Shown: positions 7,772 to 28,809 of the stretch, piece after piece
Layout: every line of letters starts with the position of its first letter
How positions within the stretch are numbered: the first letter of the stretch is position 1
Source: a virus
Taxonomy: Duplodnaviria; Caudoviricetes
DNA: 36,876 nt
Reading direction: 5' to 3' (one strand)
IMG/VR virus record: IMGVR_UViG_3300037518_000172
Location: 1 to 36,876 of that record
Position numbers and translations under genes: made by a program
The notes under the pieces: generated by a model
Databases searched by the model: none
Seen by the model: only the letters and a program-made list of their open reading frames with translations
Told to the model about the DNA's origin: nothing

Positions 7772-8205
7772 CTTAATTTCTTTTGATCAATCTGCGGGTG
7801 CCGGAATATCCCGACGATCCGCTGCCGCCAGATCGGCGAGTCCAGGCGCTCGATCACCGCATTGATCCCCGCCTCGATGTGCAGCATGCGCCCGCGCGCC
7901 ACGATCAAGCCCACGTGCATCGGCCAGCCCTTGGTGCGCAGCAAGGCCACGTCGCCCAAGCACACGTCCGCCTGATCGACTTGCCGCCAGTCATCCTTGT
8001 GCGCGGCAATCAGCGGCGCCACATTGCGGCCTGAGTTCGCGTCTTCGTAATCCTCGGCATAGCTTGGCAGATCAATGCTGAATTGCTCGGCCAACACGAG
8101 GCGGACAAGCCCCCAGCAATCGCACCCCGCGCGGTCCCGGCCCAGCGAAGCGAAAGGCAGGCCGACGTACTCACCAACCCACGCCGGCGGCTGGCGGGCG
8201 ATCAT
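7747..8205 (-). CDS. NlpC/P60 tail assembly protein (gpK-like)
   Basis: YVGLPF...GRDRAGCDCWGLV...HVGL...MLH with catalytic Cys and His residues. Confidence 0.92.
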   Translation of the reverse strand: MIARQPPAWVGEYVGLPFASLGRDRAGCDCWGLVRLVLAEQFSIDLPSYAEDYEDANSGRNVAPLIAAHKDDWRQVDQADVCLGDVALLRTKGWPMHVGLIVARGRMLHIEAGINAVIERLDSPIWRQRIVGIFRHPQIDQKKLRCACPSPL

Positions 8206-8945
8206 CAGAAGACGCCGGGGAAAAGCCCGGGCGTGAAAGAGTCCTTCGGGTAGGGCTCGGATAGAAAATTCTCGTCATCGACGGTGGCGCTCACAATCAG
8301 CGCGTCCCAGCGCACTTCGGCAATGCGCATGTTATCGAATGACATTTCCACCGTATCCGGGTCCGCCGCCCGCACCACCTCCAGCAGCACGCTCGGCGGG
8401 GTATTGATCGAGCGGATTGCCTCGGTAATTTCCAGGCTCACATTCTGGATAGCCAGCGTCCCGGCGGAGACTCCGGTGTCATCCTCGCCAGGCAGTTCGC
8501 GCTCGAAGGGCATGGCCGTGAACGTATTGCCCCGGCTTTCCATATCGACCGCGTCACTGCACACGCGAATTGGCAAGGCCAGATCATCGTGGTCGATAGT
8601 CACCAGCACAATGAATGCCTCAGCCGTTTCCTGAGCGAACACCGCCGCCCTGGCTGTAGCGGATACACCAAGATTTCCCTGTACTGCCGGCGCAAATGCG
8701 CGCGCCACAGTCTCAGCCAGTGGCACGGCAACGACAGCAGCCTCCGACACCGTAGGTGCAAGGGCCGCAGTCTCCGTCGCGGCCAGGGGAATGACGGCAA
8801 AAGCACCCGCCGCCACCGCAGGCGCAAATGCCTGCGCCACGGTCTCAGCCAAGGGAACGGCAACGATAGCATTATCGGCGGTGGCACCCCAGGATGTGCC
8901 CCAGGATGTGCCCCAGGATGTGCCCCAGCTTATGCCGGCCCCCAC
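8205..8945 (-). CDS. DUF1833-like tail tip protein with a repetitive N-terminal extension
   Basis: C-terminal LVTIDH...PIRV...FTAMPF...FTPGLFPGVF. The N-terminus has SWGT repeats and three 22-aa PLAxT repeats. Confidence 0.8.
   Translation of the reverse strand: MGAGISWGTSWGTSWGTSWGATADNAIVAVPLAETVAQAFAPAVAAGAFAVIPLAATETAALAPTVSEAAVVAVPLAETVARAFAPAVQGNLGVSATARAAVFAQETAEAFIVLVTIDHDDLALPIRVCSDAVDMESRGNTFTAMPFERELPGEDDTGVSAGTLAIQNVSLEITEAIRSINTPPSVLLEVVRAADPDTVEMSFDNMRIAEVRWDALIVSATVDDENFLSEPYPKDSFTPGLFPGVF
8887..8928. repeat. 12-bp tandem repeat (CCCCAGGATGTG x3.5) encoding SWGT repeats
   Basis: Read directly from the sequence. Confidence 0.95.
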
Positions 8946-9520: not shown

Positions 9521-10339
9521 TCAAGTGTGCCAATCGCGCACGAAGCGGTTGATTGTATCTACTATCCCCGCCGTTTGTAGTTCTGCCCATGACCCGCCTG
9601 TTTGTTGGAATCCCCAGAACACGACCCCATCGCAGTCACCCATGTCGGCATGAGATTTAATCGTGTCTAGGATGGACCGAAAATATTCATGCTCGATGAT
9701 GCTGAACGGAGTGGAGTTGTGGTACGGCTGCACATAAGCGAATATTTCCTTGTTTGGCCCGAGGCGGCGGGCTTCGGGAAATACCTCGTTCAAGAACTCT
9801 ATGTGGTCAGCCTTGGGCCAAATGGCTATTTCCGGTGCGTAGCAGGTAACGTAGAGCGTATCCAATGCGTCATGGACTTCGTTGAACGCATCCTGATCCG
9901 CCTTCCACTGAGTTTTCTGCTCGATCGTTCCTATAGCCCAGTCACGGTTCGGCGTGGGCGCGACGTTGTAGCAGCCGATCTTCAAGTCCGGCCGGACATC
10001 GCGCCATATGGCAATCATCTGCAAGAATTTGGCCTTGCTATCCGCCACGGTCGCCGCGTCGTGAAACTCGCTATCGCTATGCCCATAGTTTTCGATATCC
10101 AAAAGTATCCGTGGCGTCGGGCCATTAGCCGACGATCCGCCATTGAACAGCAGCGTTGGAAAATACGTCTCCCGAAGGAAAGTTTCCTCGGTGCCTTCGA
10201 TCTCCGTTTCTTGAGATAGCGGCTTGAGACTTTCGTCCCACATGTCCCCAGCAGCTTCGCTTTGGAATGCCATGCCGCGCATAGGCCCGGAGGGTTTCCC
10301 GGAAATATTCAGCTTATCGAGAAAGATCAACCCCGTCAT
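9521..10339 (-). CDS. putative TIM-barrel glycoside hydrolase-like protein (hyaluronidase/GH56-like motif order)
   Basis: Motifs LLDIENY, RPDLKIGCYN, LDTLYVTCY and DGVVFWG. The function is inferred. Confidence 0.45.
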   Translation of the reverse strand: MTGLIFLDKLNISGKPSGPMRGMAFQSEAAGDMWDESLKPLSQETEIEGTEETFLRETYFPTLLFNGGSSANGPTPRILLDIENYGHSDSEFHDAATVADSKAKFLQMIAIWRDVRPDLKIGCYNVAPTPNRDWAIGTIEQKTQWKADQDAFNEVHDALDTLYVTCYAPEIAIWPKADHIEFLNEVFPEARRLGPNKEIFAYVQPYHNSTPFSIIEHEYFRSILDTIKSHADMGDCDGVVFWGFQQTGGSWAELQTAGIVDTINRFVRDWHT

Positions 10340-18935: not shown

Positions 18936-20980
18936 GCTGCTTCTCCCCTAAGTTGCCCACTCTCCGTCGCGCCTGTCGTCCTGCCGCCCAGGCTTGCATT
19001 CGCCTTCCGGCCACCCGCAACCGCGCCGGATGACGTGCCGGTCATGGCCGCAGCGGAGAGCCGACCGCTTTCAACCGCCGTGCCCATTGTTATCGCGAGT
19101 AAGGTAGGCGCGAACGCAATGGTTTCCGTCTCCGCCAGCGGGATGACAATCCTGGACCCGGCCGCGACTGACGGCGCGATAGAAGCCGTTTCGGTTTCCG
19201 CCAGCGGGACGGCAATGTTCGCACCGGCAAGTATCTCGATTGTAGGCGCGAAAGCAGCCGCCACCGTTTCGGCCAGCGGAGCAACCACACGGGCACCCGC
19301 CGCGACTGCCGGTGCAAATGCCGCCGCCACCGTTGCAGCCAAAGGCAGCACAATGCCGGAGCCCGCCACGATACTCGGGGCAAGCGCATCCGCCTGTGTG
19401 GCGGCAAGAGGCACCGTGACGACTGCCCCGGCGGCCACCGCAGGCGCTAAGGCACTTGCCTCGGTTTCGGCCAGGGGCACGGCGATACGAGCGCCCGACA
19501 CCACCACAGGCGCAAGAGCGTCCGCCTCGGTAGCGGCCAGCGGCATATTGACGTTTGTGCCAGCGGCGATACTGGGTGCGAGAGCGCTTGTTTCCGTCGC
19601 TGCAAGTGGCACCGCGATATCGACAGCAGAACCAGCCGCAACGGCAGGCGCCAGGGCCGATGCTTCGGTTTGCGCCAACGGAACGGCAACAGCAGCGCCT
19701 GCCACGACCGCCGGAGCAAGCGCGGACGTTTCCGTCGCGGCCAGCGGTACGGTAGTACTGGCGCCTGTTGCAACGGCCGGCGCGAGTGCGCTAGCCGTAG
19801 TCCCGGCCAGAGGAATTGTCGTTTTCGCGCCCGCCGCGATGCCGGGTGCCAAGGCGCCAGCCTCGGTGGAGGCCAGCGGAACAACTATACTAACGCCGGG
19901 TGTTTCCGGCTCCGCGAACTGGACCACCTCGAAGGCATAGGCACTCGCCAGCGACCCGGTGATGCGCCGGCTGGCGCGCACCGTCGTATCGGCGGCGAAG
20001 GTGAAGCCGAGGACGAAGGACGCGGCCCCCGTCGTCGTGTTCGTGTGTCCCATGGTCAGGCTCATGTTCGAGCCCGGATTGATGACCGAGCGCGCCTGGT
20101 CGATGGCCGTGATCGTCGTATCGTCGGCCGTCTCGCCGCTGCCGATCGTCGGCTGCGCACGCTGCACCGTCCATTCGTCGTTGGCGCAGGTGACGACGAA
20201 GACGGAGGTGTTCATGAAGTGGCCGGCCGGCGTGCCCCCGCCGAGCCGCTGGAACTGGACGTTGGTGGTGCTGGTCAGCGCCCACCACATGGCGCCATCT
20301 ACCGGATCGTCGTCGTTGTTGCCCGCCGTGTAGCCGCCGACGATGAACGTCTTGGCCATGTCGACGGCGCTGATCGCCTGGTTGTAGGCCGTGGCGCCCT
20401 GCGAGCTGGCGTCGTTGCTCAACTCCAAGAACTGCACCGCGAACTCGGTGCCGATGCACTCGACCACGTAGAACCGCCCGGTCGTCGTCTGGAGGGTGGA
20501 CGACGTGAACCGGGAAAACGTGATTTCCGTATCGGACGTGAACTTGGCCCGGTGGCAGGCCCGGTCGAACCAGAAGCCGCTGGCCGTGGCCATGCGCCAG
20601 GACGGAACGATGAACGCCTTGGACTGGTCGACGGCGGAGATCGCCGCCGTGCCGAACACCTGGCCGGAGGCGATGGTGAAGGTGCCCTGCTGGACGTTGA
20701 CCTTGGTCAGATCCCATTCGACGACGAAGATCTCGACCTGCACGTCGTCGCCGGTCAGCAATTGGGCATTGACCCGCGCCGTGCCGCCGTTGTCGTCGAA
20801 CCACACTTCCGGCAGCAGGTTGCCGTTGACCCAGGTGACCGCCGCGCCCGCCTCGCGGATCGAATAGTACGGCGTGCAGGCCGCCGGGTCCTGCCCCTTG
20901 GTCAGGTTCGCCTGCGCCGGATTCGTCCCCGACGAGAGCGTCAGCGTGACATGCTCGATGGATTTGTGCAGCGCGGGCAT
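18932..20980 (-). CDS. large modular virion/fibre protein: four ~90-aa beta repeats plus twelve ~22-aa PLAxT repeats
   Basis: The repeats are visible in the translation. Starts immediately after the stop of the upstream gene. Confidence 0.8.
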   Translation of the reverse strand: MPALHKSIEHVTLTLSSGTNPAQANLTKGQDPAACTPYYSIREAGAAVTWVNGNLLPEVWFDDNGGTARVNAQLLTGDDVQVEIFVVEWDLTKVNVQQGTFTIASGQVFGTAAISAVDQSKAFIVPSWRMATASGFWFDRACHRAKFTSDTEITFSRFTSSTLQTTTGRFYVVECIGTEFAVQFLELSNDASSQGATAYNQAISAVDMAKTFIVGGYTAGNNDDDPVDGAMWWALTSTTNVQFQRLGGGTPAGHFMNTSVFVVTCANDEWTVQRAQPTIGSGETADDTTITAIDQARSVINPGSNMSLTMGHTNTTTGAASFVLGFTFAADTTVRASRRITGSLASAYAFEVVQFAEPETPGVSIVVPLASTEAGALAPGIAAGAKTTIPLAGTTASALAPAVATGASTTVPLAATETSALAPAVVAGAAVAVPLAQTEASALAPAVAAGSAVDIAVPLAATETSALAPSIAAGTNVNMPLAATEADALAPVVVSGARIAVPLAETEASALAPAVAAGAVVTVPLAATQADALAPSIVAGSGIVLPLAATVAAAFAPAVAAGARVVAPLAETVAAAFAPTIEILAGANIAVPLAETETASIAPSVAAGSRIVIPLAETETIAFAPTLLAITMGTAVESGRLSAAAMTGTSSGAVAGGRKANASLGGRTTGATESGQLRGEAA
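19090..19895 (-). repeat. degenerate ~66-bp coding tandem repeat (12 copies of xxxVPLAxTxAxALAPxVxAGA)
   Basis: Counted in the translation of 18932-20980; boundaries are approximate. Confidence 0.85.
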
Positions 20981-21829
20981 CTACGAAACCGCCGCCAAGT
21001 CTTGCATGCTGCGAACCTCGCGCAGACACTCCCAAGCAAAGCCGCTCGATATTTCGTCGGCAGTGTACTGGCACCACGCCAGCTTTCTTGCCCACGCCGT
21101 GCGGTCCTGCCGCGCGCAGTGATCCCAGTCATATGCCGCAACGCCCCAAACCATTGAGCCGCGATCCCGCGCGATGGTTGGCACCCCGGCTAGGACTGCA
21201 TCAACCCCGGCCCCGCTGTTGAATGTCACGACCAAAGCCGCCCTCTTCAGCGCATCTTCAAGCGTTCCGCCGATCAACATGGCGCCATGCGGCAAAGGCT
21301 GATCCGCGTCTCGCGGGTGCGGCCGGAACATCACCGGCAGTTTCCAATCGAAGCAACAGTTCAGCACCGCCGTCAGATAGAAGTCGTCCATGTTCACGCC
21401 CGCCAAGCTGGCATCGCCGCGAACTTGGCCCATCAGAAGTGCGTAGTCGCCGTCTTTTCGCCCATTGCGCCATGGCTTCATCATGTGGCCGAAGTGCTTT
21501 TGCCAACGTTCGCCGCCGTCCCGTGCATCCGGGAACTTGGCGCGGCCATTGAGCCCGTCAAACCCTAACGAAGTCCACTCGCGGCGCATCGTGATATCGC
21601 CGATATAGCCGCGCTCCATGACAAGATAGTGCGCACCGGCCTCGCGCTGCATCGCGTGCAGTTCCGTATCGCGGTGATTCCAGACAATGGCCAGATCGGA
21701 GACTCGCCAGTCGCCCTTGCTTCGCTCTTCTGGCGCCAGCCCGTGGGCACGCAGCCCGGCCAGCATGGCATCCTCAACCGGCGCCGCCCATGGCGTGTCG
21801 GCTCGGTAGAGAACAATGTCTAGGGTCAT
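20981..21829 (-). CDS. capsule-modification (KpsC/KpsS-like, GT-B) glycosyltransferase-like protein
   Basis: VMERGY, LLMGQVRGDAS, FRPHP and VVTFNSGAGVDAVLAGVP motifs. Confidence 0.7.
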   Translation of the reverse strand: MTLDIVLYRADTPWAAPVEDAMLAGLRAHGLAPEERSKGDWRVSDLAIVWNHRDTELHAMQREAGAHYLVMERGYIGDITMRREWTSLGFDGLNGRAKFPDARDGGERWQKHFGHMMKPWRNGRKDGDYALLMGQVRGDASLAGVNMDDFYLTAVLNCCFDWKLPVMFRPHPRDADQPLPHGAMLIGGTLEDALKRAALVVTFNSGAGVDAVLAGVPTIARDRGSMVWGVAAYDWDHCARQDRTAWARKLAWCQYTADEISSGFAWECLREVRSMQDLAAVS

Positions 21830-22392
21830 TTGTGCTGCAATTGAAAAACTAAACCGAACCCAAAGCCGCGCTTAGGCCCAACGATCTCGCGTGTTTTATA
21901 GTGGTCCCGTATTTCATTCCAAAGCCGGGGAACCTCCACCTGATACCGATAGGCTGGCTTTGTTCCGGCCTCCCAGTCGATATCATGAAACGCGATGATC
22001 GGCGCCAACAGCCGGTAGAATTCCCAATCCAACCGCACCGCCTCGTACCTATGGTCTGCGTCGATGACACAAGCGTCGAACGGTGTCAGCGCCAAAATGG
22101 CGGCACGGACGCTGGCCGAATGACTGTCGCCAAAGATAACGTGCCCATCGAATTTCTCGACTACGCTTTTCAGCTTTTCCGCCGAGTCTGGCCGCCCCCA
22201 TGCCGCACCCGGCATATCAACGGCGACCCCAAACGCACCCGGCCCAAGTCCGCTCATGACGTGAGCGAAAAAGACGCCGGAGCGGGCGCCGATTTCCAGA
22301 TAACGCCGGACGCCAGCCTGCCGGAATTCGCTTACAAGCTCATCAAGTTCCCATTGACCGGATTTCCGTCCGTCCAGAAACGTGTCGGTCAC
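21826..22392 (-). CDS. class I SAM-dependent methyltransferase (Methyltransf_24-like)
   Basis: YLEIGARSG, GDSH, IDADHRYEAV..DW and IAFHDI motifs. Confidence 0.85.
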   Translation of the reverse strand: MTDTFLDGRKSGQWELDELVSEFRQAGVRRYLEIGARSGVFFAHVMSGLGPGAFGVAVDMPGAAWGRPDSAEKLKSVVEKFDGHVIFGDSHSASVRAAILALTPFDACVIDADHRYEAVRLDWEFYRLLAPIIAFHDIDWEAGTKPAYRYQVEVPRLWNEIRDHYKTREIVGPKRGFGFGLVFQLQHK

Positions 22393-23096
22393 CGCCAGTG
22401 CTCCCCGATGAACGGATATTCTTTCTGCATCAGCGGCATGGCGGGCGAGCGCGGGCCGTTGAAAAACACGACGCGCGCCCGGCCCGGATCAGACACGGCC
22501 CGCACGGACACTATGTCGCCATCCCACGGCCACACGGGTTCACCGTTGCCGAGCACATGCGTCAGCCAGGACTGATCGTCTACGGCAAGGCTCGCCGCAG
22601 CGAGCTGCCCTGGCGACGCGTCCAGATCGAATTGCTCCCATACTTGCGGCCGGGCGCCGGCATCTAGCAGCACGAACGACATATTGTAGCGGCTATATGG
22701 CCTGCCCGCTTGGTGGTACAGGCGCGGCTCCCATGATTTGAAGTCTCCGGCACCCTCTAGCAGCGGGTCCAGGTCGCGCAAGATCACGCAGTCGAGATCC
22801 ATCAGCAAGATTCGTGTCCCCAGCCACGCGCCCGCTTCCGGGTGGAAGATCACAAGGCGTCGAAACCAGCCCGGAACGTCGTCGCGCAACACCACATCCG
22901 CGTGCGGCTGGGGCACGACATGCACGCGCGGGTCGATCCCGTCCGGCATATCTGTCACACAGACCAATTCGTGCGGTTGCTTCAGGTGCCGCTCCAGCAT
23001 CGAACGCAGCCGGTTAACGTAATCCGCCGAATAAACGAACAGGTGGTTGTGACGGCCGTTGGGATCGAACCAGAGAAATGTCACTACCGTCAGCAT
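22389..23096 (-). CDS. GT-A glycosyltransferase (GT8-like)
   Basis: YVNRLRSMLERHL...VCVTD, LLMDLDCVI (DxD), DQSW and VVFFNGP motifs. Confidence 0.82.
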   Translation of the reverse strand: MLTVVTFLWFDPNGRHNHLFVYSADYVNRLRSMLERHLKQPHELVCVTDMPDGIDPRVHVVPQPHADVVLRDDVPGWFRRLVIFHPEAGAWLGTRILLMDLDCVILRDLDPLLEGAGDFKSWEPRLYHQAGRPYSRYNMSFVLLDAGARPQVWEQFDLDASPGQLAAASLAVDDQSWLTHVLGNGEPVWPWDGDIVSVRAVSDPGRARVVFFNGPRSPAMPLMQKEYPFIGEHWR

Positions 23097-23620
23097 GACA
23101 ATATCTTTGCCGCGTTAACCTCGACCGCTCCCGTCATGTCCAGTACAAGTATCGGTGCGCCGCGTTCTGTCATTGCTTCGAGCGCGCGGCGAACATCGCG
23201 AACCGCTGCGGGCGTGTCATATGTCCGGCCCGGCTTGAGGCCGGACCTGATGCGTTCTGCCAACCGCGCCTCGATAACCTCGACCGGCGCCAGACAGAAC
23301 GCCGCCGTATCGGGCAACGGAATGCAGTCAAGATAACCGGGCGGCGCGCCTATCGCCCGTTGCAGTGGCATGTGCGCATCAACCGCAAGGCCTTCGATGA
23401 AGGATAACTGGATAGCAGCCGCACGCCGCAGTGACACTTCGGCTACCTCTTCCCACTGCGGCGAACCGCCAAGCGCGCCAATCCATTCAATGTCCGCATC
23501 CGTCCGGTTCATCGACACGAACGACCGCAACGAATTTCCATGCAGCGCTTGATCGCCGAGGGCTTCAAGCAGCGTCGACTTGCCCACACCCGGCGCGCCG
23601 CAGATTTGAACCAGCCTCAT
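23090..23620 (-). CDS. P-loop kinase (NMP-kinase-like)
   Basis: Walker A GAPGVGKST at the N-terminus and an RLAER lid-like motif. Confidence 0.75.
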   Translation of the reverse strand: MRLVQICGAPGVGKSTLLEALGDQALHGNSLRSFVSMNRTDADIEWIGALGGSPQWEEVAEVSLRRAAAIQLSFIEGLAVDAHMPLQRAIGAPPGYLDCIPLPDTAAFCLAPVEVIEARLAERIRSGLKPGRTYDTPAAVRDVRRALEAMTERGAPILVLDMTGAVEVNAAKILSC

Positions 23621-24159
23621 CGCGGCTCTTTATGCGTCACCACGCAAGCATACTCTTTCTGGCGCGTGGCAAACGGCTTGACCGCGAACCGCGACTCCAG
23701 CTTGCCTTGCCACCAATCGCCGTCATGCACGGACAGGTGCGGGTTGCGCCCATCCGGCAAACAGTGGCTGAGCGCGTACTTCGTGGCGATCCCGATCAAT
23801 CCGACCCGACGTACCAGCGAGGCGAGATGATCCAGCACGTTATCGACGTAATCCGGCTCGACATGCTCCATCACGTCATTGCATATCACGAAATCCGCTG
23901 GCCCCGGCAGACCGTCCTTGCCCGAAATGGCCGGGTCATACTCGGCTACCGGGATATTGATAAACTTCGCCAAGGCCACCGCAAACGTGCCCTTGCCGCA
24001 ACCATAGTCGAGCGCATCCTTGCAACCATGATCAGCGATGAGCTTGGCCGCTTTCTGCGCCCATCGGAACGATTCCGCGCCGAAGTCCGCGGCCCTGTGC
24101 ATCAGTCTGTTCTGCTCGACGTAGGACTGCGAGATCAGGGCTCGCCCGTCCCAGTTCAC
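23617..24159 (-). CDS. class I SAM-dependent methyltransferase
   Basis: ALDYGCGKG, EYDPA and DFVICNDVMEHVEP motifs. Confidence 0.88.
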   Translation of the reverse strand: MNWDGRALISQSYVEQNRLMHRAADFGAESFRWAQKAAKLIADHGCKDALDYGCGKGTFAVALAKFINIPVAEYDPAISGKDGLPGPADFVICNDVMEHVEPDYVDNVLDHLASLVRRVGLIGIATKYALSHCLPDGRNPHLSVHDGDWWQGKLESRFAVKPFATRQKEYACVVTHKEPR

Positions 24160-25049
24160 AGCGGCACCATCAAAAATGATGCATGCGATCCGTTGAGCAG
24201 CGCCACGTCCGACTTGTCCTTGCTGCGTCCGCCGTTCAGCTTCGTCTCAGCCACCAGAGGCAAAGCCGCGAAGCGCACGCCCAGCATGGTAAAGTGGTAA
24301 CGCGGATCGCCAATGATCTGGTCGTCGGTCAGAGCGACCGGGCGGACTGTGCGGTGATATCCAGCCGCCGCGAGGTCGATGCCCGGCACAATGTCCTTGA
24401 TGCCCGCGGCGCCGAACTTCCGGCGCGCGGCACTATCGAGAATGATATCTATATCGTTCGACTCGCGCAGCCCGCAGGCTTCGAACACCCCGCCCGAGAT
24501 CACGCACGCCTGCCGCCGGTCGATACCGTTCTCGGCACACCAGACCCGCATCCTGTGTAATCTGTCGTAATAGGCCGGGCGCAATGGGAACGGCCGCCGG
24601 TGGACGTGCGCAAGACTCACCGGTTGGAGCAGATCGAGCAGATAAGCCGCCTCAGCCTCACCGTCCGACGCATGAACGTTGAGGTGCATCTTCGTCCCGG
24701 CGACCCGCGCTGGGTAAGCTTCCCGCAGCACCACCTTCATCGCATCGCACGCTTGGCCGAGCGCTCCGTTGCGCGGGCGCGCGATAATGGCGCGAAGGCG
24801 AAACCCATGCGGCTCCAGTAGTCGGAGCCGTTCGCGGTTGGGGTTGATGTAACTCCGCTCCCGTGCGTCGGGATGCATCGCAATCGATTTGAGCATGTAG
24901 ACGTCGCAGTTGAACGACCAGAACGTCTCCATGCTCGCGAAGGCCAGGTCTATGCGCCGGTCGATCTCGAACCGCTCGGCGATCATCGCCTCCATCGCGC
25001 CCCAGTGTTGCCGCACTGCCGACCAGAGCAGGAACACGCCAGGCGTCAC
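24156..25049 (-). CDS. hypothetical enzyme with a C-terminal nucleotidyltransferase-like motif
   Basis: VISGGVFEACGLRESNDIDII and a terminal RSKDKSD; VHASD in the N-terminal half. Confidence 0.55.
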   Translation of the reverse strand: MTPGVFLLWSAVRQHWGAMEAMIAERFEIDRRIDLAFASMETFWSFNCDVYMLKSIAMHPDARERSYINPNRERLRLLEPHGFRLRAIIARPRNGALGQACDAMKVVLREAYPARVAGTKMHLNVHASDGEAEAAYLLDLLQPVSLAHVHRRPFPLRPAYYDRLHRMRVWCAENGIDRRQACVISGGVFEACGLRESNDIDIILDSAARRKFGAAGIKDIVPGIDLAAAGYHRTVRPVALTDDQIIGDPRYHFTMLGVRFAALPLVAETKLNGGRSKDKSDVALLNGSHASFLMVPL

Positions 25050-25768
25050 AACAGCGCCCGCACCGACGATGGATACTCGCCCTCGTACCGGGCAACCGGG
25101 ATGCGGCGTGCGGCAATTGTCTGAAAATGCGGGATCGACTGCCAGTCAGCCGGCCATTGGCAAGTCGCCGACTCCAGCGGCTTCCTCGCCCATTTAAAAT
25201 GCAGGAACGCGGGTCTGTGATCGAAGGCATCGTCTGCATCGGGGACGCCTTTGAGGTTTTGCGTGACAGGCCCTTGCTCATACCGGACGCCGGGGCCGGC
25301 CCTGTAAATCCCGGTTGTTCTGCACAATGGATGAACGCCAATGTGCGTCAATGCGTCGCCCACGATGTCCCGGCCCTCGAAACGGATGCGGTCCCGGCCT
25401 TCGCCCAGAAGCCGCCTGATCTCCGCACCTAGCCAGTCCATCGCCACCATGTCGCCGTCCCATTTCAGGTGATGCGTGCCGGTTGCCTTTGATGCCGTGA
25501 AATTGTAGAGCGCGGCGCTTGACCTGGGATCGGTTGCCGGGATTTGCGCGTGTCGCGGCCCCATTTCCCAAGTCTTGTAATCGTGTTCATAGACCTTGGT
25601 CTTGTCGGGGTGTTCCGCCGCGAATTTGGCAACAATCTGCGGTGTAGCATCGGCGGGCTGATTGAGCACGATCACCACTTCATCAACCCACTCGACAATT
25701 GATTCGAGTGAGTGGTGACACCAAACCTCTTCGTCTCTAAGTCGGACAAGCGCGGACAATCTAGTCAT
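25046..25768 (-). CDS. GT2-family glycosyltransferase
   Basis: LSALVRLRDEE...SLESI...VDEVVIV...DAT, and LKWDGD (DxD). Confidence 0.82.
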   Translation of the reverse strand: MTRLSALVRLRDEEVWCHHSLESIVEWVDEVVIVLNQPADATPQIVAKFAAEHPDKTKVYEHDYKTWEMGPRHAQIPATDPRSSAALYNFTASKATGTHHLKWDGDMVAMDWLGAEIRRLLGEGRDRIRFEGRDIVGDALTHIGVHPLCRTTGIYRAGPGVRYEQGPVTQNLKGVPDADDAFDHRPAFLHFKWARKPLESATCQWPADWQSIPHFQTIAARRIPVARYEGEYPSSVRALL

Positions 25769-25777
25769 GTTGGGCTA

Positions 25778-25807
25778 TTGACATCATGTGCCAGATTGGC
25801 ATAGGGT
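25778..25807 (+). promoter_or_regulatory. sigma70-like promoter with a palindromic operator in its spacer
   Basis: TTGACA (25778-25783), an 18-nt spacer, then TAGGGT (25802-25807). TGCCA-GAT-TGGCA inverted repeat at 25789-25801. Confidence 0.7.
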
Positions 25808-25835
25808 ACGAACGTCGTAGCATCGACAGACCATC

Positions 25836-25907
25836 TTAGCCAGGCCGGGCATCGCTACGCGAAGCCGCGCCGGGCATGGCTCGGCGTAGCGAGGCAAAGC
25901 ACAGTCC
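25836..25907 (+). repeat. pentamer array 1 (candidate guide RNA)
   Basis: ttAGC caGGC cgGGC atCGC taCGC gaAGC cgCGC cgGGC atGGC tcGGC gtAGC gaGGC aaAGC acAGT cc: 13 consecutive GC at exact 5-nt spacing. Confidence 0.92.
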
Positions 25908-25944
25908 CTTTAACCATTCGTGGCATCAGGCCGTGGAGAACATC

Positions 25945-26532
25945 ATGCAAATCAAAGTCTTCCGTTTCACCGGGTTAACCCCCCTTCTCATGTCCAACAT
26001 CGAGAGCGTCAACCGCGATGCTCCTACGCTCAAGCTCGGCACGAAGCCGAACAAGGGCGACATCGAAAAGATCGCGGAGGCCGCTACCTACCGCGACACC
26101 GACGGCTCGCTCTACCTGCCAACGCAGGCGCTCCGATCTTCGTTGCTCGACGGCTGCTCGGGACAGAAGGTCGCCGGCACCCGGATCGGCCCGAGGAAAA
26201 TCTTTCAGGGCGTTCTGTTTTGCAGCGAGGATCGCGCAACGCTCCTGAACCCCAAGAGCAAGCCGATCACCGAATACGAGATACAGATCGACAGCGGCGT
26301 CAACAAGGCCAACAAGGCACGCATCATCGTCGTCCGGCCGCGCATCGACGAATGGCACGTCGATGTTCCTTTCGAGATTGACGACGAGTTCGCGCCTACC
26401 AACTTCGAACAGTTTCTCGACACCGTGCTTTCCATCTGGAACCGGGCCGGCCGTGCCGTCGGCGCTGGCGCGTGGCGTCCTCAGAACTCCGGACGGTTCG
26501 GGCGGTATAGTGTCGAGATGGTCGGTAAGTAG
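25945..26532 (+). CDS. stand-alone RAMP-superfamily (Cas7/Csm3-like) protein
   Basis: GGAG SD; 195 aa. Beta1 FTGLTPLLM, then LYLPTQALRSSL (cf. P.IPGSSLKG.LR), and a C-terminal glycine-rich loop GRAVGAGAWRPQNSGRFGRYSV. Confidence 0.75.
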   Translation: MQIKVFRFTGLTPLLMSNIESVNRDAPTLKLGTKPNKGDIEKIAEAATYRDTDGSLYLPTQALRSSLLDGCSGQKVAGTRIGPRKIFQGVLFCSEDRATLLNPKSKPITEYEIQIDSGVNKANKARIIVVRPRIDEWHVDVPFEIDDEFAPTNFEQFLDTVLSIWNRAGRAVGAGAWRPQNSGRFGRYSVEMVGK

Positions 26533-26545
26533 TTTCACGTTTTGG

Positions 26546-26610
26546 AACGATGCGGAGCGGTGCTTTGCTTAGCGTGGCCCGGCAGCGCGTCGCCCAGCAC
26601 AGCACAGTCC
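26546..26610 (+). repeat. pentamer array 2 (candidate guide RNA)
   Basis: AACga TGCgg AGCgg TGCtt TGCtt AGCgt GGCcc GGCag CGCgt CGCcc AGCac AGCac AGTcc. Confidence 0.92.
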
Positions 26611-26778
26611 TAACCATGGCCGATGCCGGTGAATTTATCTTTCGGTGCTTGGCCGAGCGAGGCCCAGCGTCGCTTAGCGTGGCCCGGCAGCGCGTCGCCC
26701 AGCACAGCACAGTCCTAACCATGGCCGATGCCGGTGAATTTATCTTTCGGTGCTTGGCCGAGCGAGGCCCAGCGTCGC
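26567..26778 (+). repeat. exact 105-bp tandem duplication
   Basis: 26567-26671 is identical to 26672-26776, plus 2 further nt. Confidence 0.95.
26646..26715 (+). repeat. pentamer array 3 (chimera of array 4's 5' half and array 2's 3' half)
   Basis: TGCtt GGCcg AGCga GGCcc AGCgt CGCtt AGCgt GGCcc GGCag CGCgt CGCcc AGCac AGCac AGTcc. Confidence 0.9.
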
Positions 26779-26815
26779 CATGCATAGATGGGCCCGGCAA
26801 AGCAAAGCACAGTCC
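26751..26815 (+). repeat. pentamer array 4 (candidate guide RNA)
   Basis: TGCtt GGCcg AGCga GGCcc AGCgt CGCca TGCat AGAtg GGCcc GGCaa AGCaa AGCac AGTcc. Confidence 0.92.
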
Positions 26816-26835
26816 TTTAACTCAGGAGACCTCCC

Positions 26836-27501
26836 ATGAAAAAGCACCCACTCTCCAGCCTAGTTCTCGACTTCGACTTCTACCCGCGCGGCAGCGTGGA
26901 CTCGCATCACGTCAACGAGATCGCTTCGGCCATGCAGGCTGGCGCGCCCATGCCGCCCATCGTCATCGACAAGAAGTCCAAACGCATCGTCGATGGTTTC
27001 CACCGTTACCGGGCCTATCTCCGGCTGCATGGCGAAGCCTTCGAGATCGACTGCGTTGAGAAAGACTACGCCAACGACAAAGAGCTATTCCTCGATACCA
27101 TGCGGTTCAACGCCAGCCACGGCAGGGCGCTCACTCAGCACGACAAGGCTCACTGCATCATTCTGGCGAAACAGTTCCGCATTCAGCATGAGCTCATTGC
27201 CGAGGCGCTGAACATCACGCCGGACCGGATCGGCGTGCTCACGTCTACCCGAATGGGCAAGGTCGGCGCCGCGCCCATAGCCCTCAAGAGCACGATCTCC
27301 CACATGGCCGGGCGCAACCTGACTCCGGCGCAATCGACGGCCAATGACAAGCTGTCCGGCATGCAGCAGTCGTTCTATGCGAACCAACTCATCACGCTCA
27401 TCGAGAACGACCTGATCGATGCCGAGGACGAAAACCTGATGCGCAGCCTTTCGCGCCTGGCCGACTTGCTCCCGCGCGTGCTAGAAAGGAAGGCGGCTTA
27501 A
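26836..27501 (+). CDS. ParB/Srx N-terminal domain protein with a downstream HTH
   Basis: AGGAG SD. YPR...PPIVID...IVDGFHRYRAY box; NASHG; ELIAEALNITPDRI is HTH-like. Confidence 0.85.
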   Translation: MKKHPLSSLVLDFDFYPRGSVDSHHVNEIASAMQAGAPMPPIVIDKKSKRIVDGFHRYRAYLRLHGEAFEIDCVEKDYANDKELFLDTMRFNASHGRALTQHDKAHCIILAKQFRIQHELIAEALNITPDRIGVLTSTRMGKVGAAPIALKSTISHMAGRNLTPAQSTANDKLSGMQQSFYANQLITLIENDLIDAEDENLMRSLSRLADLLPRVLERKAA

Positions 27502-27503
27502 CC

Positions 27504-27563
27504 AACGGGGCGTTGCGCTGCCCGGCACTGCCCGGCAAATCCAGGCACATCAAAGCACAGTCC
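27504..27563 (+). repeat. pentamer array 5 (candidate guide RNA)
   Basis: AACgg GGCgt TGCgc TGCcc GGCac TGCcc GGCaa ATCca GGCac ATCaa AGCac AGTcc. Confidence 0.88.
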
Positions 27564-27564
27564 T

Positions 27565-27738
27565 ATGACAGGATCAGAACTCAAAGCACTTCGTAAACGC
27601 CTCGGTCTGTCGCTCGCTCAGGCGGCGCGGCAGGTCGAGGTCAGTGTCCGCACCTGGGCCAGATGGGAAACCTCAGAGCGCGTCCCAGATGGCGCGATCA
27701 AGTTGTTCGAGATCGTAAACCGCCTACGCAAGCCCTAA
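27565..27738 (+). CDS. small XRE-family HTH regulator (57 aa; absent from the ORF track)
   Basis: MTGSELKALRKRLGLSLAQAARQVEVSVRTWARWETSERVPDGAIKLFEIVNRLRKP*. Confidence 0.9.
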   Translation: MTGSELKALRKRLGLSLAQAARQVEVSVRTWARWETSERVPDGAIKLFEIVNRLRKP

Positions 27739-27756
27739 CCATGAAAGGATAGGAAG

Positions 27757-28002
27757 ATGCTGAAACATTGTTGCACCGCACTCCTGGCCAGCGCCCTCAT
27801 CGGCTGCGCGGGCTATCTCCCGCAAGCCAACGAGTACTGGATGCACTCCAACGGCTTCGGCCAGGCGACGACTTCCGATCTCACCGCCTGCAAGTACGAA
27901 GCCGCCAAGTCCGGCGGCTACGATTGGATCGACGCCAGCCTGAGACGCAGCAAAGTGTTCGACCTCTGCATGCGCACCAAGGGCTATATCCCTCGCGTGT
28001 AG
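27757..28002 (+). CDS. small lipoprotein
   Basis: LLASALIGC lipobox, then DLTACKYEA...FDLCMRTKGY. AGGA SD-like motif. Confidence 0.8.
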   Translation: MLKHCCTALLASALIGCAGYLPQANEYWMHSNGFGQATTSDLTACKYEAAKSGGYDWIDASLRRSKVFDLCMRTKGYIPRV

Positions 28003-28019
28003 GCTATTACTGACTTTAC

Positions 28020-28079
28020 AACGCCGCAAAGCGTCGCGCAGCGCAGCATGGCGGAGCGTGGCCAAGCACAGCAAAGTCT
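28020..28079 (+). repeat. pentamer array 6 (candidate guide RNA)
   Basis: AACgc CGCaa AGCgt CGCgc AGCgc AGCat GGCgg AGCgt GGCca AGCac AGCaa AGTct. Confidence 0.9.
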
Positions 28080-28107: not shown

Positions 28108-28809
28108 TCAGGCTGCGCGGCTGACTCCAACCAGCGCCATCACCCGCTCATGGAATGCCATGGTGGCCGCGCGGCAACCGGCCAGTGTTTCACATGAAAC
28201 ATTGTGGAATTTCGAGCTGTAGCCGTGGACTTCGACCTTGCGGCCAAGCCATGAGGCCCACGTCATGCCATGGTAGCTATTCGTCACCACCGTCTCCGCC
28301 GATCCCAGGAAGGCGACGATATCTTCCATCGGCGCGGTGTTGTCCAGCATCGGCAAGCCGGTGTTGTAGGCGGCCGGGTACCTGGCCCTGATAGTCTCGC
28401 TGGCGTTCACAAAGGCAACCGCCGGGCGCGTCACCGGGTATTCCAGATCGAACAAATAGCTCATGCAGGACGGGCACGGCGCCCACAGCCCCGCCTTCTC
28501 CCGCTCCGGCGTCCATTCCCGCGTGCCGATCAGGGAAAAGCCATCGGGGTCCGGCCACGGCTGCGTCTCTCCATGCCGCGACGATCCGGCCCCCCAGATG
28601 ACCTTGGGCGTGATCTCCGATGGCCGGTTACTGTTGAGCCAATTGACCATCGTTCCGCCGCCGTAAATCTGTATCTCGCTGTCGTACCTGACCTGATCGC
28701 TGTAGTTCAAAACCTCGATCTGATCAGTGCCGAAGTCGAAATACTGCGCAGGGCAGGACGCCATGTCGCCCGTGTTGCGGGGATCGCGGATATGGACGAA
28801 GGAGAGCAT
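28108..28809 (-). CDS. polysaccharide pyruvyl-transferase-like protein
   Basis: NTGD, IYGGGT, VIWGAG, IGTRE, PCPSCM and VVTNSYHG motifs. Confidence 0.78.
   Translation of the reverse strand: MLSFVHIRDPRNTGDMASCPAQYFDFGTDQIEVLNYSDQVRYDSEIQIYGGGTMVNWLNSNRPSEITPKVIWGAGSSRHGETQPWPDPDGFSLIGTREWTPEREKAGLWAPCPSCMSYLFDLEYPVTRPAVAFVNASETIRARYPAAYNTGLPMLDNTAPMEDIVAFLGSAETVVTNSYHGMTWASWLGRKVEVHGYSSKFHNVSCETLAGCRAATMAFHERVMALVGVSRAA

What the first reader, a model, noticed from the sequence alone, without database searches (positions are those of the whole stretch)
25836..28079. All arrays read as stop-free codon strings, with further partial codon-phase matches to tail genes
Seen in sequence, variable triplets: array 1 TTA CAG CGG ATC TAC GAA CGC CGG ATG TCG GTA GAG (LQRIYERRMSVE); array 4 GGT TTG CGA GAG CCA GTC CAT ATA TGG CCG (GLREPVHIWP); array 5 GGG GTT GCT CCG ACT CCG AAA CAG (GVAPTPKQ); array 6 GCC AAA GTC GCA GCA ATG GGA GTG CAA (AKVAAMGVQ). 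The array 5 dinucleotides GT-GC-CC-AC-CC-AA match six consecutive codons (VAPTPN, minus 9964-9947) at codon positions 1-2. Array 4 matches GITDPAHIW of the tail tip gene (minus 5968-5942) at 6 of 9 dinucleotides. Each match is individually compatible with chance and was found by eye. Whether the code is NN-skip-one or a full NNN remains open.
Basis: inference. Interest (0 to 1): 0.7.

Follow-up and report, generated by a model that had tools for sequence, protein, structure and literature searches.

The report
Phage VIPR guides with codon-like scaffold
A phage carries six five-base repeat arrays, likely guide RNAs, beside a VIPR-type RNA-guided protein; their matches to its own tail genes are at chance level, but in related phages the normally fixed base after each variable pair avoids stop codons, which likely records the targeted gene's codon and would hint at how such guides are made.

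Summary
The six arrays are real: NN-X-G-(C/T) pentamers around a Vipr RAMP gene (25945-26532; SUSP1 Vipr hit, E 4e-4), i.e. a phage VIPR locus. P(no stop in 52 triplets) is 0.16-0.29. The six-pair run of array 5 has family-wise P 0.14 (13/20 bases overall); the array 4 match P 0.50; homologs of both tail genes do not extend either match. No target was found for the window's arrays. Yet the hunch partly holds at clade level: in 11 related loci stop triplets are 4 against 14.4 expected (P 1e-4), TGG is 14 against 4.1, and NN fits codon positions 1-2. This Vipr lacks both residues that read the first scaffold G in SUSP1 (H17, D177). A distant relative with fixed X hits a phage gene 22/22 under skip-one with X matching 1/11. 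Best reading: skip-one pairing, with a freed X likely keeping a trace of the target's third codon base. Three-base pairing is not excluded. Array 3 is a read-supported in-register chimera of arrays 4 and 2.

The parts
25796..25823 (+). sigma-70-like promoter match just upstream of array 1
   Evidence: 9 of 12; 1 found, 0.8 expected in shuffles, so weak on its own
25836..25905 (+). array 1, 14 NN-X-G-Y units, predicted vrRNA upstream of vipr
25945..26532 (+). vipr gene, 195 aa single-RRM RAMP; S17 and A176 replace SUSP1 H17 and D177; R131, W177, R178 kept
26549..26608 (+). array 2, 12 units
26567..26778 (+). 105-bp tandem duplication (26567-26673 = 26672-26778, GC overlap) that creates array 3
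   Evidence: junction contig 26644-26701 in runs X1 and X4 and doubled depth; absent from L001
26644..26713 (+). array 3, 14 units: units 1-6 of array 4 joined in register to units 5-12 of array 2
26749..26813 (+). array 4, 13 units
26836..27501 (+). accessory gene, ParB-like N-terminal domain, conserved next to vipr in L122 and L127
   Evidence: phrog_1033 E 4.5e-16
27507..27561 (+). array 5, 11 units (two ATC)
27565..27738 (+). small XRE/Cro-type HTH gene, also present in L122
   Evidence: PF13560 E 2e-10
27757..28002 (+). 81-aa ORF of no known family, hydrophobic N-terminus with a Cys (lipoprotein-like; inference)
28023..28077 (+). array 6, 11 units

Best explanation
This is a phage VIPR locus whose six NN-X-G-Y arrays are predicted to be guide RNAs that the Vipr protein likely uses to bind and silence genes of competing phages by pairing only the NN bases and skipping each third target base, while the freed base X likely keeps a trace of the target's third codon base. 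Shown: the protein family, the arrays, loss of the two residues that read the first scaffold G, codon-position-1-2 composition of NN, avoidance of stop triplets in the clade, and a perfect skip-one target for a distant relative. Inferred: transcription, Vipr binding, silencing, the targets of these six guides (none found; not the phage's own tail genes), and the reason X is codon-like. The likely reason is that guides arise by copying target triplets between GY spacers, after which X drifts, whereas in GGY systems the protein forces X to G.
For: Vipr: phmmer hit to SUSP1 Vipr 36pp E 4.2e-4, model pLDDT 92, 133 PDB matches at E<=0.001, all 35 rows shown being CRISPR type III/VII RAMP complexes. 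Residues: H17>S, D177>A, while R138, W178, R179 are kept (roles from 10.64898/2026.04.26.720927); first scaffold base A33 G22 C11 T9 of 75 units, second G in 73 of 75; L004, with D in the G-loop, is 100% G. Skip-one: L133 guide 22/22 on L007 starting at an ATG, X 1/11, surprise 6.5 vs shuffled maximum 1.9 among 147 guides; X is invariant in L006 (A), L136 (A), L010 (G), L015 (T) while NN varies. Codon phase: NN of 461 clade units fits sense positions 1-2 by +22 bits against -19 to -144 for the five other frames with window genes; L127 guide lies on the conserved GQPTW motif of 150 homologs, P 0.01. X: stops 4 vs 14.7, 4 vs 15.2 keeping N2-X pairs, 4 vs 14.4 without the window, TGG 15 vs 4.6, 2 vs 9.8 after removing repeated unit pairs; reverse-strand stops 9 vs 9.6; no dependence of X on the next NN.
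Against: No target for any of the window's guides, so neither the pairing rule nor the X trace is shown directly in this clade; the 22/22 case is a 27%-identical Vipr with X nearly fixed at A. Outside the TA/TG boxes the X-given-NN signal is not specific to codon phase (z 2.0-4.0 in phase 0, 1.9-4.6 in phase 2). TTA, CGA, GGA and ATA triplets are common although rare as codons in GC-rich genes (recalled). An L122 guide has TAA over a Tyr codon of the homolog in its own contig. Ten distant variable-X loci show no significant depletion (8 vs 10.5, P 0.17). Loci are related and only 34 of 461 units begin TA or TG. L010 and L146 have A at D177 yet 100% and 75% G, so the residue link is not strict.
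Confidence: 0.55

Rival explanations
1. Three-base code: with the G1 pocket lost, X pairs with the base that canonical VIPR skips, so the guide reads contiguous target triplets and only GY is flipped out (3+2 instead of 2+3).
For: X follows NN directly on the guide, so pairing is geometrically possible (order; inference); both G1-reading residues are lost; X entropy 1.76-1.99 bits in all 12 clade loci; stops avoided and TGG enriched.
Against: L133, also with A at D177, hits 22/22 with X 1/11; X fixed in several loci with the same G-loop; thumb residue R131 and G-loop W/R kept; TAA over a Tyr codon in L122; X is not phase-specific outside TA/TG; NNN scans of the window are at null and external core hits match X at most 4 of 8.
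Confidence: 0.17
2. Ordinary VIPR variant: X is a relaxed, neutral scaffold base, and the stop depletion comes from shared ancestry, recycling of units between arrays, or local sequence preferences.
For: Relaxed motifs (NNNGG, YNNNG, NNNNG) are already listed; only 34 informative units; generic neighbour effects in all frames; no significant depletion in distant variable-X loci; units are visibly reused within loci.
Against: Depletion survives removal of repeated unit pairs (2 vs 9.8, P 6e-4), removal of the window, and a null that keeps N2-X pairs; strand-specific; TGG, the one non-degenerate sense codon of its box, is the most enriched of 64 triplets while other xGG triplets are scarce; only 0.3% of 41,664 triplet trios are as depleted.
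Confidence: 0.22
3. The guides target the phage's own tail genes (self-regulation of late genes).
For: Both matches are in frame; array 5 run has single-array P 0.017; partial in-frame hits to genes of the own contig occur in L008, L014, L122, L127.
Against: 13/20 and 16/24 bases, below the 80% used for natural targets; family-wise P 0.14 and 0.50; 0 of 120 TipJ homologs beat the window's own 6 of 12 compatible residues, and conserved columns contradict the guide; 2 of 2 homologs of ORF 9521 keep the residues that break the array 5 match.
Confidence: 0.04
4. The arrays encode peptides or are translated, which is why they lack stops.
For: No stops in the NNX reading.
Against: The triplets are separated by GC, so no ribosome reads them in series; in a 5-periodic array only one unit in three is in frame, which cannot give a 73% depletion (inference).
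Confidence: 0.01

Closest known systems
VIPR, type II prototypes SUSP1 and Pseudomonas fulva prophage (PMC13142463; 10.64898/2026.04.26.720927; 10.64898/2026.10.15.759431)
   Same: Phage-borne small RAMP with G-loop and thumb Arg; one array upstream and several downstream of vipr; 11-14 pentamers per array with a constant 3' end; DNA-binding-type accessory genes; codon-phase NN.
   Different: First scaffold base is free (G in 22 of 75 units) and H17/D177 are replaced; X is codon-like in the clade; ParB-like plus HTH accessory genes; very short constant end with no structure detected; protein similarity limited to residues 120-193.
Non-canonical VIPR arrays (YNNNG, NNNNG in the PMC13142463 supplement; WGT/NN, TGH/NN, GAC/NN in 10.64898/2026.10.21.760802)
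   Same: NGY scaffold equals the listed YNNNG repeat.
   Different: In the passages I saw these motifs are described as relaxed scaffolds; no link to G1-pocket residues, to the skipped base or to guide origin is made. Type I-VII assignment could not be read from figures.
Class 1 CRISPR Cas7/Csm3 backbones
   Same: RAMP fold (Foldseek E about 1e-6, TM about 0.5).
   Different: No cas1/cas2 or other cas genes and no repeat-spacer array seen in the window; period 5 instead of 60-79.

Membership tests
VIPR | Vipr RAMP protein with RRM core, thumb and G-loop | tested here: met
VIPR | 9-16 tandem pentamers, GGY/NN or a related consensus | tested here: met
   11-14 units, NGY = listed YNNNG variant
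VIPR type II (canonical GGY) | invariant GG with H17 and D177 reading G1 | tested here: not met
   G in 22 of 75 first positions; S17, A176
VIPR | invariant, structured 3' tail | tested here: inconclusive
   constant end AGC-ac-AGT-C in all six and similar ends across the clade; folding z -1.3 to +0.8 for 5 arrays
VIPR | minimal locus with vap accessory gene, virus-encoded | tested here: met
   ParB-like and HTH genes; terminase, portal, capsid, TipJ in the window
VIPR | targets follow the 1-nt skip rule, skip on wobble | tested here: inconclusive
   no target for window guides; met for distant relative L133; clade NN fits codon positions 1-2
VIPR | vrRNA expressed and bound by Vipr; silencing | not testable with these tools
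   needs small-RNA sequencing, pull-down and reporter assay
VIPR types I-VII | position in the published Vipr phylogeny and vap1-6 class | not tested
   figures S16, S17, S21 are pictures; only legends seen
CRISPR-Cas class 1 | repeat-spacer array of period 60-79 and several cas genes | tested here: not met
   period 5; no cas family among 30 proteins scanned
TIGR-Tas | arrays of period 18 with a Tas effector | tested here: not met
   period 5 and RAMP fold (period)

The most novel reading that the evidence does not exclude
A VIPR clade in which loss of the G1 pocket has turned the first scaffold base into target information: guides are target codons interleaved with GC, either as a footprint of templated guide acquisition or as a true three-base-pairing code, and new guides are also made by in-register recombination in the GC scaffold, as caught in array 3.
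Probability: 0.4. Interest if true: 0.8.

Novelty: new variant of a known kind. Interest (0 to 1): 0.57.

Why it matters
The VIPR sections I read do not say how guides are made. A scaffold base that still mirrors the skipped target base would be a direct footprint of acquisition and would make that question testable with sequence and one reporter assay. If X pairs, it is a second VIPR code with 50% more specificity per unit. The H17/D177 link gives a protein-side reason for relaxed scaffolds. The read-supported chimera shows one route to new guides. If the depletion is an artefact, this is an ordinary member of a family described in 2026.

Tried and rejected
Window scans under seven spacing rules with shuffled arrays: nothing significant at full length. 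Exact 8-pair gapped scans of viral contigs for arrays 1, 4, 5, 6, 2 gave 4, 9, 45, 27, 17 loci; flanking pairs extended at 1-5 of 12, 0-2 of 10, 1-4 of 6, 0-2 of 6, 1-3 of 8. 41 of the 45 array 5 hits are one protein family at 32-37% GC scoring 19/22 (one 20/22); counted as one chance family against a 61% GC phage, though not strictly excluded. Array 3 was not scanned externally. An 11-pair scan of metagenome contigs for array 1 found 0; one mismatch in a core would hide a true target in all these scans. Guides against 0.96-1.7 Mb of VIPR-phage DNA and 2.3 Mb of baseplate-gene loci (both strands counted): only L133 clearly exceeded shuffles; L127's 24/28 hits come from loci selected for that motif and are not independent. 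Self-contig scan: 7 of 179 guides at p<=0.02, 11 at p<=0.05, a small excess. No cultured phage or plasmid match for this Vipr; one distant genome locus; host not determined (terminase below 60% to all). Array folding not above shuffles. No RNA holder listed. Earlier-findings look-ups returned nothing.

Full report
What is there. The window is a lone virus record of 36,876 bases, 61% GC, with terminase, portal, capsid, TipJ and lysozyme genes on the minus strand. A plus-strand island at 25.8-28.1 kb holds six arrays of NN-X-G-(C/T) pentamers, 11-14 units each, all ending AGC-(ac/aa)-AGT-C. They surround a 195-aa gene, a ParB-like gene, an HTH gene and an 81-aa ORF. The 195-aa protein matches SUSP1 Vipr (PDB 36pp, E 4.2e-4), folds at pLDDT 92 and resembles CRISPR type III/VII RAMP complexes. 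This is the layout of VIPR, where NN pairs read DNA with one skipped base per unit, mostly the wobble base (PMC13142463). That paper's supplement already lists YNNNG repeats.

The triplets and both matches are as quoted and in frame. They are not beyond chance. Only 2 of 52 non-redundant units start with TA or TG, so P(no stop) is 0.16-0.29. No array beat shuffled arrays at full length under any of seven spacing rules, and 1 of 6 best NNx hits was in sense codon phase. The array 5 run has P 0.017 alone and 0.14 over five arrays, with 13/20 bases; the array 4 match has P 0.50. If these sites reflected targeting of a relative's gene, homologs should fit better. None of 120 TipJ homologs exceeds the window's 6 of 12 compatible residues, and both homologs of ORF 9521-10339 keep the residues that break the array 5 match. 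External scans found no target; they needed exact cores, so absence is weak.

NN or NNN. I gathered related loci: 17 viral, 1 genomic, 27 metagenomic, and 4 new from a second viral scan. Evidence for skip-one: a guide of L133 (Vipr 27% identical, X mostly A) matches L007 at 22/22 from the start codon of a gene, X agreeing at 1 of 11; the best of 147 shuffled guides scored 1.9 against 6.5. In L006, L136, L010 and L015 X is invariant while NN varies. In an alignment with a SUSP1-like Vipr whose numbering reproduces the published residues, this protein has S and A at H17 and D177, the readers of the first scaffold G, and keeps R138, W178 and R179. That explains a free first base. L004, with D, is 100% G, but L010 and L146 are 100% and 75% G with A, and my search patterns favoured the A form.

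The surprise is in the close clade: the window plus 11 loci at 57-81% Vipr identity. I left out L001 (same virus), array 3 (chimera), one opposite-strand array of L002, the last three units of each array and units without G-Y, leaving 461 units. NN fits sense codon positions 1-2 by +22 bits against -19 to -144 in other frames. Stop triplets are 4 against 14.7 (0 of 2000 shuffles), 4 against 15.2 when N2-X pairs are kept, and 4 against 14.4 without the window; TGG is 15 against 4.6. After removing repeated unit pairs they are 2 against 9.8 (P 6e-4), while reverse-strand stops are 9 against 9.6 and X is independent of the next NN. An L127 guide lies on the conserved GQPTW motif of a 150-member family (P 0.01), with X giving Gln and Trp where 149 of 150 homologs have them. 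Against: outside TA/TG the X signal is not phase-specific; A is favoured and TTA, CGA, GGA are common; an L122 guide has TAA over a Tyr codon; 29 distant loci show 57 against 53.7 and ten variable-X ones 8 against 10.5; only 34 units are informative and the loci are related. Imperfect but real codon-likeness fits a copied base that then drifts better than strict pairing. This is inference; no exact target of a variable-X guide was found.

Array 3. A 105-bp tandem duplication (26567-26673 = 26672-26778) joins units 1-6 of array 4 to units 5-12 of array 2 at a shared GC, in register. L001, another assembly of this virus, lacks it but ends there. A 58-base contig across the junction exists in X1 (possible source) and X4, and the repeated part has about twice the depth in X1 (15.9 against 7.4-8.4). 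So it is likely real, and it shows in-register recombination making a new guide.

Mechanism. Shown: family, anatomy, residue loss, composition, one distant perfect target. Inferred: transcription from the weak promoter match at 25796, a Vipr filament on each RNA, silencing of genes of competing phages, and the origin of X. Partial in-frame hits to genes of the own contig in L008, L014, L122, L127 and L133 suggest that targets are homologs in related phages; the excess is small (7 of 179 at p<=0.02).

Literature seen. PMC13142463: results, discussion, figure legends, supplement passages. 10.64898/2026.04.26.720927: abstract, first part of results, discussion. 10.64898/2026.10.15.759431: abstract, one methods section, passages, discussion; 'stop codon' 0 hits, 'acqui' 2. 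10.64898/2026.10.21.760802: passages and one methods section. Three searches showed only these four VIPR papers. In what I read, none links the first scaffold base to the skipped base or describes guide acquisition. I did not see figures or the bioRxiv supplements, which may cover this clade, its type and its targets.

Verdict. The finding as written is chance-level on top of a known system. Its stop-free hunch replicates in relatives and points to a testable variant. New variant of a known kind; interest 0.57.

Noticed in passing
window 26567-26778: 105-bp tandem duplication makes an in-register chimeric guide (array 3); junction contig in two runs, absent from L001.
   Followed up: yes
L133:802 guide versus L007:8485 and L134:973: 22/22 and 21/22 skip-one matches at the start of a nuclease-like gene upstream of another VIPR locus; L133 carries its own diverged copy (16/22).
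   Followed up: partly
L008:10563 and L014:3584: Guides directly downstream of vipr match vipr genes of their own clade in frame (21/26; 19-20/26), suggesting VIPR-against-VIPR targeting.
   Followed up: partly
L006, L136, L139: AGC-scaffold arrays of 28-44 units; the L136 array of 44 exceeds the 30 repeats mentioned in the structure paper's discussion.
   Followed up: no
L015, L145: TGY-scaffold VIPR arrays; X is T in 41 of 41 units of L015.
   Followed up: no
L187 (Listonella phage phiHSIC, AY772740, ORF22): Cultured phage with a Vipr-like gene (H17>N, D177 kept) and three variable-first-base arrays, one overlapping annotated ORF21; a possible bench model.
   Followed up: partly
L185 (Gordonia phage MakoManhole gp78) and L186 (phage DSL-LC04): Unannotated GGY-type VIPR loci in cultured phages.
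   Followed up: no
window 8674-8855 and 19092-19879: Degenerate 66-bp (22-aa) repeats shared by two virion-region genes.
   Followed up: no
window 20981-25768 and 28108-28809: Cluster of methyltransferase, kinase-like and glycosyltransferase-like genes within the head-tail region, flanking the VIPR island on both sides.
   Followed up: no
window 8887-8928: Perfect 12-bp tandem repeat, 3.5 copies, near the start of ORF 8205-8945.
   Followed up: no
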